Below, piece after piece: positions 3,506 through 51,808 of a DNA stretch of 64,000 nucleotides. The stretch lies in assembly GCA_022819945.1 (NCBI GenBank), contig JAJEGI010000108.1, positions 72,880 through 136,879 on the forward strand, given 5' to 3'. The stretch is from Candidatus Poribacteria bacterium (GTDB taxonomy: Bacteria > Poribacteria > WGA-4E > WGA-3G). A program made the position numbers and the translations under genes. The notes beneath the pieces were generated by a model. That model was not told the DNA's origin and ran no database searches. It was given only the letters and a program-made list of their open reading frames with translations. The number at the start of each line of letters is the position of its first letter. The first letter of the stretch is position 1.

Positions 3506-4852
<1,347 letters not shown>

Positions 4853-46413: not shown

Positions 46414-46442
46414 TTGACACAGAAGTGAAAATATGTTATAAT
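46414..46442 (+). promoter_or_regulatory. Perfect extended sigma70 promoter TTGACA-17 nt-(TGT)TATAAT abutting the intron 5' end
   Basis: Read directly from the sequence. The -10 element ends 9 nt before GTGCG at 46452. Confidence 0.6.
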
Positions 46443-47256
46443 TAGGATATGGTGCGATTGGACAGGCACAAAATAACTGTGCATGAGCGCAAGCAATACA
46501 GCACTCGGTGAACCTAACACCGCATACTTTACCGTAACTGCGTTGATGGAAACGTCAAGGTGGGAAGCAACGGGACATGGAGACCAGCGAACACAAGGCA
46601 AAATTATTTTGGGAAAATCATAACCCAAATAACGTGCTAGCGAATTCCAGTAAGAACCGAAAAGTATAAGCGAAAGTTGAATATCCCAAAGCCCCGTTAA
46701 ATTAGATACGCGAGCCTTTGAGACGGCTATAATCGTCAAAAGCGTAGTATCATAAATAGTATACTCATGTTTTATACTATTAAATGATGTGCTTGTATTT
46801 CACATCATAAAAGTTTATTATTCACGGAATAAACTAATTAGGTTGATTGATACAAGGCTACGAAGTAGCACATCGGGGTAAAGGATAATACTAAATCGGT
46901 TTAGTTATCTTGTAGAGAGTCCAATAGAACCTAACCCGTCTTTTCTGTGAAAAGATGGCATGGTTGAGGAGATTGGAAAAAGTCAAGAATTTTTTCGGAC
47001 ATCTTAAAAAGGAATTTATCAGTACTGGGTTAACGTAGCAAGGTGGACGGTATTAACCGCCCACGCATCGCAAGGACGACTACAACCGTCCTCGCTCTCC
47101 CACGCTACTGGTGGACACCCCCAATACTAAGGCATTGTTGATGCTCATAAACAATTTAATAATGCCTTAGTATTCATAGAAAACCTGCAAAATTCTTTTC
47201 AAAGCCCAATCAGTGTCAATCCTTTAACAATTCTTTTCTCTGGAGAATTCTAAATC

Positions 47257-48999
47257 ATGAGTAATCAAAACTCAAGTAGAACAAGCACTCATAACACATT
47301 TACCGCATCCAATATAAGAAGATGCGAAAAATATGTTCTTGATATGCAGAAAAGACTTGACAAAGCGGTTGCCAATAATGACGTGAAAGCAATTCATAAT
47401 CTTTTTACTATCTTGGTTAAAAGGTCTTGGGCAGTGAAAGTTTTGGCAGTATGGAGAATAACATATCTCAACAACGGTAAATACACTGCTGGAATTGATG
47501 ATAAGAAAATTCCACATGCTACAAAACAACAACAGGACGAAATGAGATGGCGACTTCTACAAGAAATCAACATCAAATCAAATCCTGATGCTATCAGGCG
47601 TGTTTATATTCCGAAATCTAACGGCAAGAAACGACCGCTTGGCATACCCACCTTAAAAGACCGAATAAATCAAGAAATCCTTAGAATAGCACTTGATCCA
47701 ATAGTAGAATATCATTTTGACGATGACAGTTACGGTTTTAGACCAAAACGAAGTTGCCAAGATGCTATGAAAATGTTATTTATCTGCCTTTCAAGACAAG
47801 ACCGCAGACGCTACATAGTAGAAGGTGATATTAAAAGTTGTTTTGACAATATATCTCACAATCACATACTATGGACTTTACGGACTTGGAAAGTGCCGAT
47901 ATATGCCATACGCACTATTAAAAAGATGCTAAAAGCAAAGATATTTGATAAAGAAAAACTACACGAAAGCACACAAGGAACACCTCAAGGTGGAGTAATT
48001 TCACCGATGTTGTCTAATGTGGCGTTATCATCTTTTGACTACTACATCAGAAATCACACCGACCAAATAATGGTAAGATATGCTGATGATTTTGTGATTT
48101 TGTGTAAATCCAAATCACAGGCTAAGGAAGTTAAAAAGGACATATCTAAATATCTTAATAACACGATTGGCTTAACGCTATCAGAGGAAAAGACTCATAT
48201 CACTCATATCAAGAAAGGTTTTAATTTTCTAGGATTTACATTTAGAAAATATCCACAAACAGGGATACACAAACCTAAAGATATAAGTGATTATACCATG
48301 TTAGTTACACCTGATAAGGAAAGAACGAAAGACCGCATTTTGAAATTAAAAGATGTAATAAGCAAAGGCAAAGCCCTACCCCAAAACACGCTTATCACAC
48401 TTTTAAATCCGATACTTCGTGGCTGGAGTAATTACTATAGATACGTCAATAGTTCTAAAACATTTAGCAACATTGATTATTATTTATGGCGGAAACTTCT
48501 TAAATGGGGAAAACGGAGGCACAACAGAAAAGGCGGAAAGTGGGTTGTAGATAATTATTACACCAAAGACAACAAAGGGCTTATCTTTGGCAAAAGACCC
48601 AATCCTTTACTTATCAGGCTTACCGATACAACTTTATTAAGTTTTATCAAAGTAAGAAAAGGAAAAAGAGTCTATAGTAAAAGTGATTCTGATTATTGGA
48701 CAAAACGGGAATATGCGTTGGTTAATCAGAATTTATCAGAAATGAATAAACGACTACTTAAAAAGCAAAAGGGCAAATGCCCACATTGCAATAACCCTTT
48801 TGCTTTAGATGATAAATTACATACTCATCATATATTTCCAAAAGCACTCGGAGGCAACGATAGTTATAGCAACCTTCAACTACTGCATGCCGAATGCCAT
48901 CGTGAGTTACATTCCAAAAGGGGATATGGTGTTAGTTCGGCAACACACCCGACTGCCAATCGGGACTCGCAGGTTCGAGACCTGTTATCTCCAATTTGA
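47257..48999 (+). CDS. Group II intron reverse transcriptase/maturase with HNH endonuclease domain
   Basis: RT motifs (RRVYIPKSNGKKRPLGIPT, YGFRP, VRYADDFVI), X domain (LNPILRGWSNYYRY) and HNH (CPHCNN...HHIFPKALGG...LLHAECHRELH). The last 26 codons read through the tRNA-like sequence, so the native C-terminus is uncertain. Confidence 0.9.
   Translation: MSNQNSSRTSTHNTFTASNIRRCEKYVLDMQKRLDKAVANNDVKAIHNLFTILVKRSWAVKVLAVWRITYLNNGKYTAGIDDKKIPHATKQQQDEMRWRLLQEINIKSNPDAIRRVYIPKSNGKKRPLGIPTLKDRINQEILRIALDPIVEYHFDDDSYGFRPKRSCQDAMKMLFICLSRQDRRRYIVEGDIKSCFDNISHNHILWTLRTWKVPIYAIRTIKKMLKAKIFDKEKLHESTQGTPQGGVISPMLSNVALSSFDYYIRNHTDQIMVRYADDFVILCKSKSQAKEVKKDISKYLNNTIGLTLSEEKTHITHIKKGFNFLGFTFRKYPQTGIHKPKDISDYTMLVTPDKERTKDRILKLKDVISKGKALPQNTLITLLNPILRGWSNYYRYVNSSKTFSNIDYYLWRKLLKWGKRRHNRKGGKWVVDNYYTKDNKGLIFGKRPNPLLIRLTDTTLLSFIKVRKGKRVYSKSDSDYWTKREYALVNQNLSEMNKRLLKKQKGKCPHCNNPFALDDKLHTHHIFPKALGGNDSYSNLQLLHAECHRELHSKRGYGVSSATHPTANRDSQVRDLLSPI
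48920..48993 (+). tRNA. tRNA-like gene, anticodon GCC (Gly), embedded in the intron and overlapping the IEP 3' end
   Basis: Hand-folded cloverleaf. Acceptor GGGGATA/TATCTCC (G3:U70 wobble). D stem GTGT/ACAC with GG in the loop. Anticodon stem CCCGA/TCGGG with loop CTGCCAA. 4-nt variable loop. T stem GCAGG/CCTGT with loop TTCGAGA. Discriminator A. Position 14 is U rather than A, and CCA is not encoded. Confidence 0.6.
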
Positions 49000-49094
49000 A
49001 ATTTAATTCACGATAAACGTTTTGTCGATTGACTTTCAGTAAACCAAGCAGGCTCACAATTTTATCAATTGTTTGCTTACTATGAGGTGAAATA

Positions 49095-49502
49095 ATGAAA
49101 GATAAAATTGTATTCTTTATTTTAGGAATGCTTGTAATAACTGCAGTAATCATCACAGAAAGAGTGAATTCACCAGTTGCACAAGTAGATACACAAGTCT
49201 TTGAAAATGTATTAATTAGAGGTAAACTAATCATTGAGGACGGAGATAATAGAATTACTCTGGAAAACAAAGATGGTGCTTCTAATATAATAATTGATTC
49301 TAAAGGCTGCGGTATTGCACTGAGTGCTAAGGAAGATAATGCTACAGTTCTCGTTATAAACGATATACAAGACAAAGGGAAACTTGGCATTCCAAAAGGT
49401 ATAGCGTTGTATACTACGAGAGACCAAGCAACAAATGAAAAAGGCTCACTCATTTATATGCAAGATGATAAAGGTATGAAAATTTCAACCACTACAGATT
49501 AA
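49095..49502 (+). CDS. Hypothetical membrane-anchored 135-aa protein (intron cargo ORF)
   Basis: GAGGTGA SD 7 nt before the ATG. N-terminal TM segment (IVFFILGMLVITAVIIT) followed by a beta-rich D/G/N/K-rich domain. No recognisable family. Confidence 0.55.
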   Translation: MKDKIVFFILGMLVITAVIITERVNSPVAQVDTQVFENVLIRGKLIIEDGDNRITLENKDGASNIIIDSKGCGIALSAKEDNATVLVINDIQDKGKLGIPKGIALYTTRDQATNEKGSLIYMQDDKGMKISTTTD

Positions 49503-49520: not shown

Positions 49521-49549
49521 TTGAAATACTAATCAAAATGTGTTATAAT
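49521..49549 (+). promoter_or_regulatory. Sigma70-type promoter TTGAAA-17 nt-(TGT)TATAAT inside the intron, 44 nt before domain V
   Basis: Read directly from the sequence. Confidence 0.45.
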
Positions 49550-49592
49550 ACACAAAATCAAATGTAATAAAAGTCGTTATTGTTGACATGGA

Positions 49593-49667
49593 AAGCCGTG
49601 TGCGGTGAAAGTCGCACGCACGGTTTGGGGAGAGGGGCTAGAAGGCGACTTTTAGTCCCTACTCTAC
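49593..49667 (+). ncRNA. Group II intron domains V and VI
   Basis: Domain V is AAGCCGTGTGCGGT-GAAA-GTCGCACGCACGGTTT: an 8-bp lower stem with the AGC triad, a 2-nt CG bulge, a 6-bp upper stem and a GAAA loop. Domain VI is an 11-bp helix (49630-49640 paired with 49653-49664) with a single bulged A at 49661, 6 nt before the 3' end. Confidence 0.85.
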
Positions 49668-49859: not shown

Positions 49860-50813
49860 ATGAATAGCAGAACTTCCGGCCTGCTCAGTCAAATGCGAGA
49901 ACGTCGAGCGGAACGAAAAAAACCGAAGCGTTTTGTCGCATTGAAGAAGGTTACGCTGGATTCCAGCCAGCAGCACCACATTTCCGAGGCACAAGCGAAT
50001 CTGCCGAAACACCCCATCACGCAAAAACATATTAAAAAGAGTTCCACCGCGTTTTCAGTCGCAATGTTGTTTCATATCCTCATCGCTATATTCATTGGAA
50101 CTTACGTTATCGTTGAGCGGATTGAGTATGAAGATGAAACATTTGATGTGAGTATGGTCGTAGAAGAGTCAAAAACGAAACGCCGACTCATACGTAGGAA
50201 GACAACGCAGTTTGACTCAAAAACGGAACGCCAACAACCCGTTTTCAAGCAACCCGTAAGGACAGATACTGCCCAATTGCCTTCAAAGGATGGGTTCACA
50301 ATCCCTCAAGGTCCAGAAACAGGGTTTGATCTTACAACGCCAGAAACGAGTACAGGGCCCGCGCTTATAAATGTTGACCGAAATTTTGTACAACCTACAA
50401 CGACAATCGAACCTGAAACCAAGGCACCAGGCTTTGAACTCGAGCGCGACGCACCAACACTGATAAATAAACTTGATACCCCTGATGCTAATGTAGGACC
50501 CGGGTTGGATAACATTAACTTTACGCCTGAGCCAGGCGTTGTTGAGCCCAAGTATAAAGTTAAAGTGAAGCCGAAGTATCCAGAAAGTGCTAAGAAAGCA
50601 GGGAAGGAAGGCACTGTTCTTTTGCAAGCAACCATTGACGAAAATGGTATTCCAAAAGACATTGTGGCATTGACTAACCTCGGATTTGGGTTTGAGGCAG
50701 CAGCAATTGAGGCGCTGAAAAAAGCGACTTTTCGTCCGGCGACGAAGGCTGGTAAACCTATCACCCTTAAAGAGGTTCAAATACCCTACGAGTTTAAACT
50801 TGAAGAGGACTAA
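49860..50813 (+). CDS. TonB-family energy transducer (paralogue 1)
   Basis: N-terminal TM segment (FSVAMLFHILIAIFIGTYVIV), Pro/Thr-rich linker and TonB C-terminal domain (KPKYPESAKKAGKEGTVLLQATIDENG...ATFRPATKAGKPI). Confidence 0.85.
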   Translation: MNSRTSGLLSQMRERRAERKKPKRFVALKKVTLDSSQQHHISEAQANLPKHPITQKHIKKSSTAFSVAMLFHILIAIFIGTYVIVERIEYEDETFDVSMVVEESKTKRRLIRRKTTQFDSKTERQQPVFKQPVRTDTAQLPSKDGFTIPQGPETGFDLTTPETSTGPALINVDRNFVQPTTTIEPETKAPGFELERDAPTLINKLDTPDANVGPGLDNINFTPEPGVVEPKYKVKVKPKYPESAKKAGKEGTVLLQATIDENGIPKDIVALTNLGFGFEAAAIEALKKATFRPATKAGKPITLKEVQIPYEFKLEED

Positions 50814-50860: not shown

Positions 50861-51808
50861 ATGAATAGCAGAACTTCCGGCTTGCTCAGTCAAATGCGAG
50901 AACGTCGCGCAGAACGAAAAAAACCGAAGCGTTTTGTCGCATTGAAGAAGGTTACGCTGGATCCCAGTCAGCAGAGCCATATTTCCGAGGCACAAGCGAA
51001 TCTGCCGAAACACCCCATCACGCAAAAACATATTAAAAAGAGTTCCACCGCGTTTTCAGTCGCAATGTTGTTTCATGTCCTCATCGCTATATTCATTACG
51101 ACCTACGTGATCGTCGACCGGATTGAACAGGAGGATGTGGTATTTGATGTGAGTATGATCGTAGAAGAGTCGAAAACGAAACGCCAACTCATACGTAGGA
51201 AGACAACGCAGTTTGACTCGAAAACGCAACAGCAGAAACCCGTTTTCAAGCAACCCGTAAGGACAGATACTGCCCAATTGCCTTCAAAGGATGGGTTCAC
51301 AATCCCTGAAGGTCCAGGAACAGCACTTGACCTTACAACGCCAGATGCCAATGAAGGCCCCTCACTCATAGATGTTAACCGGAATTTCGTACAACCCACG
51401 ACAACAATCGAACCTGAAACCAAGGCACCAGGCTTTGAACTCGAGCGCGACGCACCAACACTGATAAATAAACTCGATACCCCTGATGCCAAGGCAGCAC
51501 CCGGGTTGGATAACATTAACTTTACTCCCGAGCCTGGAGTCGTCCCACCGAAAATTATCCTCGCAGAAAAAAAGTATCCAGAGAGAGCGAAAAAGGCAGG
51601 AAAGGAAGGCGAGGTTATTTTGCAACTGACCATTGATGAAAAGGGTATTCCTAAAGACATTGTCCCCTTGACAAACATCGGATTTGGGCTTGAGGAGGCA
51701 GCGATCGAGTTGTTGAAGAAGAGCACTTTCCGACCTGCTACGAAGGGTGGAAAGCCGATAAGTCTTCTGATCGAAATACCTATTGACTTTAAACTTGAAG
51801 ATGAATAA
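50861..51808 (+). CDS. TonB-family energy transducer (paralogue 2, tandem duplicate)
   Basis: Collinear with 49860-50813, including the RBS region. Most positions are identical by eye. Confidence 0.85.
   Translation: MNSRTSGLLSQMRERRAERKKPKRFVALKKVTLDPSQQSHISEAQANLPKHPITQKHIKKSSTAFSVAMLFHVLIAIFITTYVIVDRIEQEDVVFDVSMIVEESKTKRQLIRRKTTQFDSKTQQQKPVFKQPVRTDTAQLPSKDGFTIPEGPGTALDLTTPDANEGPSLIDVNRNFVQPTTTIEPETKAPGFELERDAPTLINKLDTPDAKAAPGLDNINFTPEPGVVPPKIILAEKKYPERAKKAGKEGEVILQLTIDEKGIPKDIVPLTNIGFGLEEAAIELLKKSTFRPATKGGKPISLLIEIPIDFKLEDE

What the first reader, a model, noticed from the sequence alone, without database searches (positions are those of the whole stretch)
48920..48993. tRNA-like gene inside the intron with mixed identity signals (GCC anticodon, G3:U70, A73)
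A 74-nt cloverleaf can be folded by hand.
- 7-bp acceptor stem and 4-bp D stem.
- Perfect 5-bp anticodon stem with loop CUGCCAA.
- T arm with UUCGAGA and a G53-C61 pair.

It starts inside the last codons of the HNH domain, so the IEP reading frame runs through it to a stop 4 nt beyond. This suggests the tRNA segment replaced the native IEP terminus.

The anticodon reads glycine codons. The acceptor stem, though, has a G3:U70 wobble plus an A73 discriminator, which are the established alanine identity set. It has G2:C71 rather than the C2:G71 and U73 used by bacterial GlyRS. If expressed and charged, it could be an Ala-accepting, Gly-decoding tRNA.

Alternatively it is a decaying passenger tRNA or a tRNA-like structural element. 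Position 14 is U, not A.
Basis: partly seen in the sequence, partly recalled or inferred. Interest (0 to 1): 0.75.

Follow-up and report, generated by a model that had tools for sequence, protein, structure and literature searches.

The report
tRNA-shaped module inside a group II intron
The 74-base tRNA is real, and it belongs to a previously undescribed family of tRNA-shaped RNA modules that bracket the reverse-transcriptase gene in one clade of bacterial group II introns; they have been kept for their shape, not their anticodon, so they are probably RNA-processing or recognition signals rather than decoders.

Summary
ARAGORN and Rfam (51.8 bits against a cut-off of 29) both call a tRNA at 48920-48993(+). 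It has anticodon GCC, G3:U70, A73 and U14. It starts one base after the last HNH codon of the intron-encoded protein (IEP), whose frame runs through it.

It is not a one-off. Related introns, probably from Poribacteria, carry a tRNA-shaped element at the same site:
- Type A is nearly identical to this one, but the anticodon is GCC, GUN or AUC.
- Type B has the same acceptor, D, anticodon-stem and T helices, but a 20-22-nt structured anticodon loop.

The cloverleaf covaries strongly: 98% of cells pair and 11-12 of 21 pairs show compensatory changes, against 0-3 in slid controls. Sister elements lie about 100-160 nt upstream of the IEP start in three introns. None of 80 more distant HNH/IEP loci has one.

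G3:U70 is confined to type A. The canonical tRNA-Gly(GCC) next to related introns is quite different (C2:G71, G3:C70, U73, encoded CCA).

Best reading: a shape-selected tRNA-like module, probably recognised by RNase P, RNase Z or the CCA-adding enzyme, that punctuates the intron transcript at ORF boundaries. An Ala-charged, Gly-reading tRNA is not excluded for this copy, but comparison does not favour it.

The parts
48920..48993 (+). The tRNA (type-A tRNA-like element): 74 nt, anticodon GCC, G3:U70, A73, U14, no encoded CCA
   Evidence: ARAGORN; Rfam RF00005 51.8 bits; cloverleaf MFE; custom model R1 66.6 bits
47257..48999 (+). Intron-encoded protein ORF (RVT_N, RVT_1, GIIM, HNH); its last 26 codons are translated tRNA sequence
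   Evidence: ORF list; Pfam, with HNH ending at residue 554 = nt 48918; tails of relatives
48845..49015 (+). Tract 92-100% identical to introns that are otherwise about 69% identical (L004, L013). It covers the end of the HNH coding region, the tRNA and about 20 nt beyond, and acts as a recombination hinge
   Evidence: Sliding identity; base-by-base alignment
49095..49502 (+). ORF135, a conserved passenger gene of this intron clade (TM anchor plus all-beta domain, function unknown). The tRNA lies between it and the IEP
   Evidence: Homologues lie only inside related introns; no Pfam, NCBIfam or PDB match
46452..46456 (+). Presumed 5' end of the group II intron (GTGCG)
   Evidence: Direct reading and the conserved position in relatives; D1-D4 Rfam hit at 46504-46636 below gathering score
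49591..49667 (+). Group II intron domains V-VI (3' end of the intron at about 49667)
   Evidence: Rfam RF00029 69.8 bits
46414..46442 (+). TTGACA-N17-TATAAT promoter-like site ending 9 nt before the intron; the likely source of the transcript that contains the tRNA
   Evidence: Scan, 12 of 12 matches; same arrangement in all relatives

Best explanation
The sequence is a genuine tRNA-shaped RNA module carried in domain IV of a group II intron. It belongs to a lineage-specific family of such modules that sit at the two boundaries of the IEP reading frame: about 100-160 nt before its start codon, and exactly at its stop codon.

What selection has kept is the acceptor/T-arm minihelix, the D arm (the elbow) and the anticodon stem. 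The anticodon loop and any aminoacylation identity set have not been kept.

Shown here: the fold, its conservation by compensatory change, its position, and its restriction to this intron clade.

Inferred: the module works by shape. It would be recognised by enzymes that read tRNA shape (RNase P at its 5' end; RNase Z and the CCA-adding enzyme at its 3' end). The long intron-containing transcript would then be cut at ORF boundaries, separating the IEP message, the downstream ORF135 message and the ribozyme domains. This is what mitochondrial 'tRNA punctuation' and plant mitochondrial t-elements do.

Its origin is probably a cellular tRNA copied into the intron, for example by template switching of the intron RT. 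It has since been shuffled between introns by recombination around a conserved hinge.

The released type-A RNA would carry G3:U70/A73 and could be alanylated as a by-product.
For: 1. Same site, many introns. Type A occurs in the window, L012, L013/L014 and L004. Type B occurs in L007, L008/9/10, L015, L016 and L017.
2. Cloverleaf covariation. Across all 8 elements, 98.7% of cells pair (44-53% when partners are slid) and 12 of 21 pairs have compensatory changes (1-3 when slid). The five clearly homologous type-B elements alone give 98.1% and 11 of 21, against 0-3.
3. The anticodon loop is not conserved. It is GCC, AUC or GUN on one body, or a 20-22-nt insert. G3:U70 occurs only in type A.
4. 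Sister elements lie upstream of the IEP start in L005 (38.6 bits, with the same odd UG-GUGU...ACAC D arm as type A), L013 and L018. In L013 the IEP ORF is flanked on both sides.
5. All elements are in the sense orientation.
6. Specificity. None of 80 more distant HNH/IEP loci has a tRNA or an R1 hit at the HNH end. There is no other copy in the 64-kb window.
7. The type-A body is constrained. Between L004 and L013 it differs at 1 of 71 positions against a 10.4% background (P=0.004), while 2 of 3 anticodon bases differ.
8. Precedent for tRNA-like processing signals: Arabidopsis t-elements (PMC1920247). Group II RTs switch templates onto RNA 3' ends and copy tRNAs full-length (bioRxiv 10.1101/792986; 10.1101/474031).
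Against: - No expression or cleavage data exist.
- RNase P cleavage at G1 would remove the IEP stop codon, which lies inside or just after every element. This would leave a non-stop message, an awkward consequence if the aim is IEP expression.
- The element is dispensable. Close relatives (L003, L005, L011) lack it at this site but keep ORF135.
- A pure processing signal does not obviously need a conserved anticodon stem, or the conserved type-B insert.
- The extreme similarity of type A between introns with only 61% IEP identity is at least partly due to recombination of a 170-190-nt tract. It is therefore weaker evidence of selection than it first looks.
- The window's own genome could not be searched for its canonical tRNA genes.
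Confidence: 0.45

Rival explanations
1. It is a working decoder. It would be processed out of the intron transcript, CCA-tailed, charged with alanine by AlaRS through G3:U70/A73, and used on the ribosome to read GGC/GGU as Ala. Sister copies would read Asp codons (GUC, AUC). That would make it a retroelement-borne mistranslating tRNA with a shifting anticodon.
For: - Full canonical cloverleaf with a 7-nt anticodon loop, U33, A37 and T loop UUCGAGA.
- G3:U70, A73 and G2:C71 are the AlaRS set, and AlaRS ignores the anticodon (PMC11415595).
- The body is nearly invariant while the anticodon changes stepwise, GCC to GUN to AUC.
- Natural mistranslating tRNAs exist in bacteria (PMC10404621).
Against: - G3:U70 is absent in every type-B homologue at the same site, and their anticodon loops cannot decode.
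- U14 replaces the near-universal A14, and A15/C48 is a non-standard Levitt pair. The Rfam score is 10-20 bits below that of the host tRNAs.
- A34 (AUC) is unusual for a bacterial decoder.
- There is no encoded CCA.
- No benefit to the intron is evident.
- The element is dispensable in close relatives.
Confidence: 0.12
2. It is a neutral relic. A cellular tRNA was copied into the intron by RT template switching or recombination, and it is now simply carried along and decaying, with no function.
For: - Patchy distribution on the IEP tree.
- A clean tRNA-sized (77-nt) indel relative to L003.
- Several tRNA-like inserts at different places in one intron (L013).
- Group II RTs template-switch onto tRNAs (10.1101/792986, 10.1101/474031).
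- Non-canonical U14.
Against: - Compensatory substitutions keep all four helices in homologous type-B elements.
- The type-A body is less diverged than its flanks.
- The same two ORF-boundary sites are used repeatedly, always in the sense orientation.
Confidence: 0.18
3. It is a protein-binding or folding platform within the intron RNP. A tRNA mimic would recruit a host tRNA-binding protein (an aaRS, EF-Tu or a modification enzyme) or the IEP itself, to aid folding, splicing or stability. This would parallel the way mitochondrial tRNA synthetases assist group I introns. Alternatively it acts as an RT pause site and recombination hinge that promotes module shuffling.
For: - The whole L-shape, including the anticodon stem and elbow, is conserved. 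A co-change of D loop and T loop is seen in L015-17.
- Type B has a conserved extra hairpin that could be a binding site.
- Recombination breakpoints cluster around the element.
Against: - No candidate partner is known.
- The element is dispensable in close relatives.
- No covarying RNA partner was found for the anticodon loop.
Confidence: 0.15

Closest known systems
Plant mitochondrial t-elements and the mitochondrial 'tRNA punctuation' model (also mascRNA from MALAT1)
   Same: tRNA-shaped structures embedded in long transcripts at the borders of coding regions. They are valued for shape rather than decoding, and RNase P and RNase Z generate mRNA ends at them (PMC1920247).
   Different: Those are organellar or nuclear. 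Here the elements lie inside a bacterial mobile ribozyme (group II intron domain IV) and overlap the stop codon of the RT gene. Cleavage is not demonstrated here.
tRNA genes carried by mobile elements (phage and plasmid tRNAs) and natural mistranslating tRNAs (the bacterial tRNAProX family; human tRNA-Ala/Gly variants with G3:U70)
   Same: A tRNA gene rides on a selfish element. Acceptor identity and anticodon disagree, and AlaRS would be expected to accept a G3:U70 acceptor (PMC11415595, PMC10404621).
   Different: Those are free-standing genes with evidence of charging. This one is embedded in an ORF and an intron, its homologues lose the anticodon loop and G3:U70, and nothing is known about charging.
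3' tRNA-like structures of plant RNA viruses and of the Neurospora Mauriceville/Varkud retroplasmids
   Same: A tRNA mimic associated with a replicating element. The retroplasmid one works with an RT related to group II IEPs (own knowledge).
   Different: Those lie at the extreme 3' end, end in CCA and serve as replication or cDNA initiation sites. This element is internal, has no CCA and lies far from the intron's 3' end, where target-primed reverse transcription starts.
tmRNA tRNA-like domain
   Same: G3:U70 and A73, alanine charging, and no anticodon function.
   Different: No tag reading frame and no pseudoknots. ARAGORN finds no tmRNA. Only weak hits (14-16 bits) to RF00023 were seen, and those were on relatives.

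Membership tests
tRNA (Rfam RF00005) | Cloverleaf with 7/4/5/5-bp helices, scoring above the family threshold | tested here: met
   51.8 bits against gathering 29; ARAGORN call; MFE cloverleaf
tRNA (Rfam RF00005) | Near-universal tertiary nucleotides (U8, A14, R15:Y48, G18G19, U33, U54-U55-C56, A58) | tested here: inconclusive
   Most are present, but position 14 is U and 15/48 is A/C (direct reading). The score is 10-20 bits below that of neighbouring host tRNAs
tRNA (functional decoder) | Processed, CCA-tailed, aminoacylated and used on the ribosome | not testable with these tools
   CCA is not encoded; no RNA or proteome data are available
Bacterial tRNA-Gly | GlyRS identity set: U73, G1:C72, C2:G71, G3:C70, C35, C36 (established knowledge) | tested here: not met
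   C35 and C36 are present, but the element has A73, G2:C71 and G3.U70. The canonical tRNA-Gly(GCC) beside related introns does have the full set
tRNA-Ala | G3:U70 with A73 and G2:C71 in the acceptor stem | tested here: met
   Direct reading. Sufficiency of G3:U70 for AlaRS: PMC11415595
tRNA-Ala | Anticodon NGC | tested here: not met
   The anticodon is GCC. Sister copies have AUC and GUN
tRNA-like processing element (t-element type) | tRNA-like fold embedded in a longer transcript at a cistron border, conserved for shape rather than anticodon | tested here: met
   Position at the IEP stop and upstream of the IEP start; covariation; variable or expanded anticodon loops
tRNA-like processing element (t-element type) | Endonucleolytic cleavage by RNase P and/or RNase Z at its ends | not testable with these tools
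   Needs end-mapping or in vitro cleavage
Mobile group II intron (context) | 5' GUGYG, domains V-VI, and an IEP with RT, maturase (X) and HNH domains | tested here: met
   GTGCG at 46452; RF00029 69.8 bits; Pfam RVT_N, RVT_1, GIIM, HNH
3'-terminal viral or retroplasmid tRNA-like structure | Located at the 3' terminus of the replicating RNA and ending in CCA | tested here: not met
   Internal to domain IV, about 600 nt before domain V, and followed by AUU
tmRNA | tRNA-like domain plus tag-peptide reading frame | tested here: not met
   ARAGORN reports no tmRNA; there is no RF00023 hit in the window

The most novel reading that the evidence does not exclude
Type-A elements are real, AlaRS-chargeable tRNAs carried and spread by a retroelement. 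Their anticodon is being re-targeted (GCC to GUC to AUC) while the body is held constant. They would be mobile 'recoding' tRNAs that insert alanine at glycine or aspartate codons. A slightly less exotic version is that group II introns have recruited the host tRNA-processing machinery through tRNA punctuation, to excise their own RT mRNA from the ribozyme.
Probability: 0.12. Interest if true: 0.9.

Novelty: new variant of a known kind. Interest (0 to 1): 0.68.

Why it matters
Group II introns are the presumed ancestors of spliceosomal introns and non-LTR retroelements, and domain IV is usually thought to hold only the IEP gene. A conserved family of tRNA mimics bracketing that gene would be a new layer of host-intron interaction: tRNA-processing enzymes acting on a mobile ribozyme. 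It would also be a bacterial counterpart of organellar tRNA punctuation. In addition it gives natural evidence that tRNA-sized sequences enter retroelements, which fits RT template switching.

If the minority reading is right, it would be the first tRNA with an alanine identity set and non-alanine anticodons found riding on an intron.

Either way it is directly testable with end-mapping, RNase P/Z assays and AlaRS charging.

Tried and rejected
- Kissing-loop partner. I searched each intron for complements of the anticodon loop (UUGGCAG for GCC copies, UUGAUAG for the AUC copy). Hits were not at homologous positions and were absent in L013, so there is no covarying partner.
- Source isotype by similarity. 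Phage tRNAs match only about 80% over the 3' half (tRNA-Asn, tRNA-Ile), and E. coli gives no match. No assignment is possible.
- Function of neighbouring ORF135. There is no Pfam or NCBIfam family, the AF2 model is of moderate quality (pLDDT 62), and no PDB fold match has E<0.2.
- Protein search with the 49-aa HNH end plus tail, to collect more anticodon variants.
- The genome-contig scan with the IEP gave only one useful relative, L018. The JGI metagenome scan gave no close relatives but served as a control set.
- Taxon of the window via cluster names. No names are attached. 'Poribacteria' rests on the record title of L018 and the names given to P0006 and P0022.
- tmRNA reading: rejected.
- 'The covariation is only because different tRNAs were captured independently': addressed by repeating the test on type B alone.
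Full report
**1. The observation**

ARAGORN finds one tRNA in the 64-kb window, at exactly 48920-48993(+), with anticodon GCC. Rfam's tRNA model scores it 51.8 bits (gathering 29; E=3e-8 for the whole window) over the full model, and the minimum-energy fold is the cloverleaf.

- acceptor GGGGAUA/UAUCUCC with G3.U70, G2-C71 and discriminator A73;
- a 4-bp D stem, with U at position 14;
- anticodon stem CCCGA/UCGGG with loop CUGCCAA;
- T arm GCAGG-UUCGAGA-CCUGU;
- no encoded CCA.

The element lies in a group II intron. The 5' end is GTGCG at 46452, and domains V-VI are at 49591-49667 (RF00029, 69.8 bits). The IEP ORF is 47257-48999 and has RVT_N, RVT_1, GIIM and HNH domains.

The Pfam HNH match ends at residue 554 (nt 48918). 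The tRNA therefore begins one base into the next codon, and the last 26 IEP residues are translated tRNA. The stop codon begins 4 nt after A73.

**2. It is not a one-off**

The ORF downstream of the tRNA (ORF135, 49095-49502) has homologues at 35-64% identity, and every one lies directly after a group II IEP. This defined a clade of related introns. I fetched their DNA, plus further IEP relatives chosen by their C-terminal tails.

At the same position, 0-4 codons after the conserved ...ECHRE[IL]HSK motif, most of these introns carry a tRNA-shaped element.

Type A is a canonical 74-nt cloverleaf. It occurs in:
- the window;
- L012 (the same locus in another sample);
- L013/L014 (IEP only 61% identical to the window's; the tRNA differs at one D-loop base);
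- L004 (identical body, but anticodon AUC).

The anticodon happens to be an in-frame codon of the IEP tail, so protein tails report it. Within one 90%-identity IEP cluster the tails read ...HPT-A-NRD (GCC)...HPT-I-NRD (AUC) and ...HPT-V-NRD (GUN, most simply GUC).

Type B occurs in L007, L008/9/10, L015, L016 and L017. It has the same unusual D arm (UG-[UC]UGU...ACA[AG]) and the same helices. Its anticodon loop, however, is a 20-22-nt insert with an inner hairpin (loop G(U)UAGCA) and a 3' ...ACAU.

L003, L005 and L011 lack any element at this site. Relative to the window, L003 shows a clean 77-nt indel between near-identical flanks.

**3. The shape is under selection**

On the alignment of eight elements, 98.7% of cells form standard pairs, against 44-53% when partners are slid. 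Twelve of 21 pairs show compensatory double changes, against 1-3 in the slid controls.

Independent capture of different cellular tRNAs could fake such covariation. I therefore repeated the test on the five type-B elements alone. These are clearly homologous to one another, since they share the same odd insert, D arm and site. The result was 98.1% paired and 11 of 21 compensatory pairs, against 0-3. The cloverleaf, including the anticodon stem, has been maintained in place as these introns diverged.

For type A, L004 and L013 are 89.8% identical overall. The tRNA body differs at 1 of 71 positions (P=0.004 against the background rate), while 2 of the 3 anticodon bases differ.

G3:U70 is found only in type A. 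Type B has G3-C70 or A3-U70, and L007 has G4.U69.

**4. A second site, and specificity**

A covariance model built from the eight elements (R1) finds no other copy in the window. It does detect sister elements about 100-160 nt upstream of the IEP start codon in L005 (38.6 bits), L013 (34.1 bits) and L018 (21.8 bits). The L005 element has the same UG-GUGU...CGGUA-ACAC D arm as type A. In L013 the IEP ORF is therefore flanked by tRNA-like elements on both sides.

L013 also holds a 66.8-bit tRNA (anticodon GGC, U73, no G3:U70) in the 5' part of the intron. All elements are in the sense orientation.

As a control I used 80 more distant HNH/IEP loci from JGI metagenomes. None has a tRNA or an R1 hit next to the HNH end.

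**5. Mosaic history**

The window intron is about 69% identical to the L004 and L013 introns, but 92-98% identical over roughly 48845-49015, which covers the HNH end, the tRNA and about 20 nt beyond.

On an NJ tree of IEPs, types A and B and introns without an element are interleaved. Type A sits in two non-sister clades.

Window and L012 are 96-100% identical up to about 49050 and only 48-73% identical beyond it.

The element therefore lies in a recombination-prone hinge between an 'IEP module' and an 'ORF135 module'. Part of type A's striking conservation reflects tract exchange rather than selection alone.

**6. Comparison with host tRNAs**

In L005, L008 and L010 the intron ends about 40 nt upstream of a host tRNA-Gly(GCC)-Cys-Val cluster. 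That tRNA-Gly is the standard bacterial type: GCGGGAG..., C2:G71, G3:C70, U73, encoded CCA, 73 bits. It is unrelated to the intron-borne tRNA.

The window's own genome could not be searched. The taxon (Candidatus Poribacteria) is inferred from the record title of L018 and the names given to P0006 and P0022, and could not be confirmed for the window itself.

No similar tRNA exists in the phage or E. coli collections.

**7. How it most likely works**

Across the family the conserved parts are the acceptor/T minihelix, the D arm (elbow) and the anticodon stem. The variable parts are the anticodon loop and the identity nucleotides. That pattern fits recognition by factors that read tRNA shape: RNase P, RNase Z and the CCA-adding enzyme (established knowledge of their substrate requirements). 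It does not fit a decoding role.

With the placement at both borders of the IEP ORF, the best-supported model is a bacterial, intron-borne analogue of mitochondrial tRNA punctuation and plant t-elements (PMC1920247). Cleavage at the elements would separate the IEP message, the ORF135 message and the ribozyme domains. This step is inferred, not shown.

A plausible origin is the copying of a cellular tRNA into the intron by RT template switching. Group II RTs switch end-to-end onto RNA 3' ends and copy tRNAs full-length (bioRxiv 10.1101/792986; 10.1101/474031).

Difficulties for this model:
- RNase P cleavage would remove the IEP stop codon.
- The element is dispensable in close relatives.
- The conserved type-B insert is unexplained.

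**8. Rivals**

- *Ala-charged, Gly-reading decoder.* The chemistry is sound: G3:U70 suffices for AlaRS, which ignores the anticodon (PMC11415595). The stepwise anticodon change on a fixed body is intriguing. However, homologues lose both G3:U70 and a usable anticodon loop, U14 and A15/C48 are non-canonical, A34 is odd for a bacterial decoder, and no benefit is apparent. I give it about 0.12.
- *Neutral relic.* The compensatory changes argue against this.
- *Protein-binding platform or recombination hinge.* This remains possible.
- *Kissing-loop role for the anticodon loop.* Tested and not supported.

**9. Novelty**

Full-text searches found no report of tRNA-like elements or tRNA genes inside bacterial group II introns. 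The ingredients are known: tRNA-like processing signals, tRNAs on mobile elements, and tRNAs whose acceptor identity and anticodon disagree. I therefore rate this a new variant of a known kind. It is of considerable interest to intron and tRNA specialists, and it is directly testable.

Noticed in passing
window 49095-49502; L003-L017 equivalents: ORF135 (N-terminal membrane anchor plus all-beta domain) is a conserved passenger gene of this intron clade with no known family or fold match. Between the window and L012 the IEP is 98% identical but this ORF only 59%, with a sharp breakpoint near 49050. The cassette has been swapped by recombination.
   Followed up: partly
window 46414-46442 and 49521-49549; same positions in L004-L018: Every intron of the clade begins 9-13 nt after the -10 box of a strong TTGACA-N17-TATAAT-like promoter, so the 5' exon in the RNA would be only a few nucleotides long. 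Nearly all have a second TTG-N17-TATAAT motif ending 38-47 nt before domain V, possibly an outward-reading promoter for the downstream host genes.
   Followed up: partly
L005 6498-6857; L008 7377-7741; L010 5431-5790: In three relatives the intron ends about 40 nt upstream of a host tRNA-Gly(GCC)-Cys(GCA)-Val(GAC) cluster, that is, in the leader of a tRNA operon. Other copies sit in front of a Rieske/cytochrome b operon (L004, L013, L015) or the TonB pair (window, L012).
   Followed up: partly
L013 3304-3375: A high-scoring tRNA (Rfam 66.8 bits) lies inside the 5' part of the intron. It has anticodon GGC (Ala) but U73 and no G3:U70, the mirror image of the mismatch in the window's tRNA. It is absent from the close relative L004.
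   Followed up: partly
L005 3978-4054; L013 3826-3896; L018 2780-2851: tRNA-like elements lie about 100-160 nt upstream of the IEP start codon. The L013 one again has G3:U70 and A73, and the L005 one shares the odd D arm of the window's tRNA.
   Followed up: yes
L015 5838-5922; L016 6727-6813; L017 2995-3081: These type-B elements have T loop UGCAAAU (G at position 55) together with a D loop lacking the GG pair. This is a possible co-change of the 18/55 tertiary contact. From memory, GUGC replaces GTPsiC in the staphylococcal cell-wall tRNA-Gly species that are not used in translation.
   Followed up: no
L007 2327-2358; L016 6753-6784: The enlarged anticodon loop begins YU-UGC-G, and the UGC pairs with a downstream GCA in a small hairpin. 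This resembles the anticodon-intron helix of intron-containing pre-tRNAs, with an alanine anticodon.
   Followed up: no
proteins P0130/P0022 and P0131/P0009 (no DNA held): IEPs in the same 90% cluster as the type-A carriers end in quite different but recurrent tails ('SVGSLGK...STDL' and 'RQNA.SLDAR'). This suggests other modules, perhaps other tRNA-like ones, at the same insertion site.
   Followed up: no
window 49860-50813 and 50861-51808: Two tandem, closely similar TonB_C-domain genes lie immediately downstream of the intron.
   Followed up: no
window about 47125-47175; L005 about 4075-4125: A long near-perfect hairpin (ATACTAAGGCATT...AATGCCTTAGTAT) lies between the ribozyme domains and the IEP start. 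It is shared by the window and L005 but absent from L004, L013 and L018.
   Followed up: no
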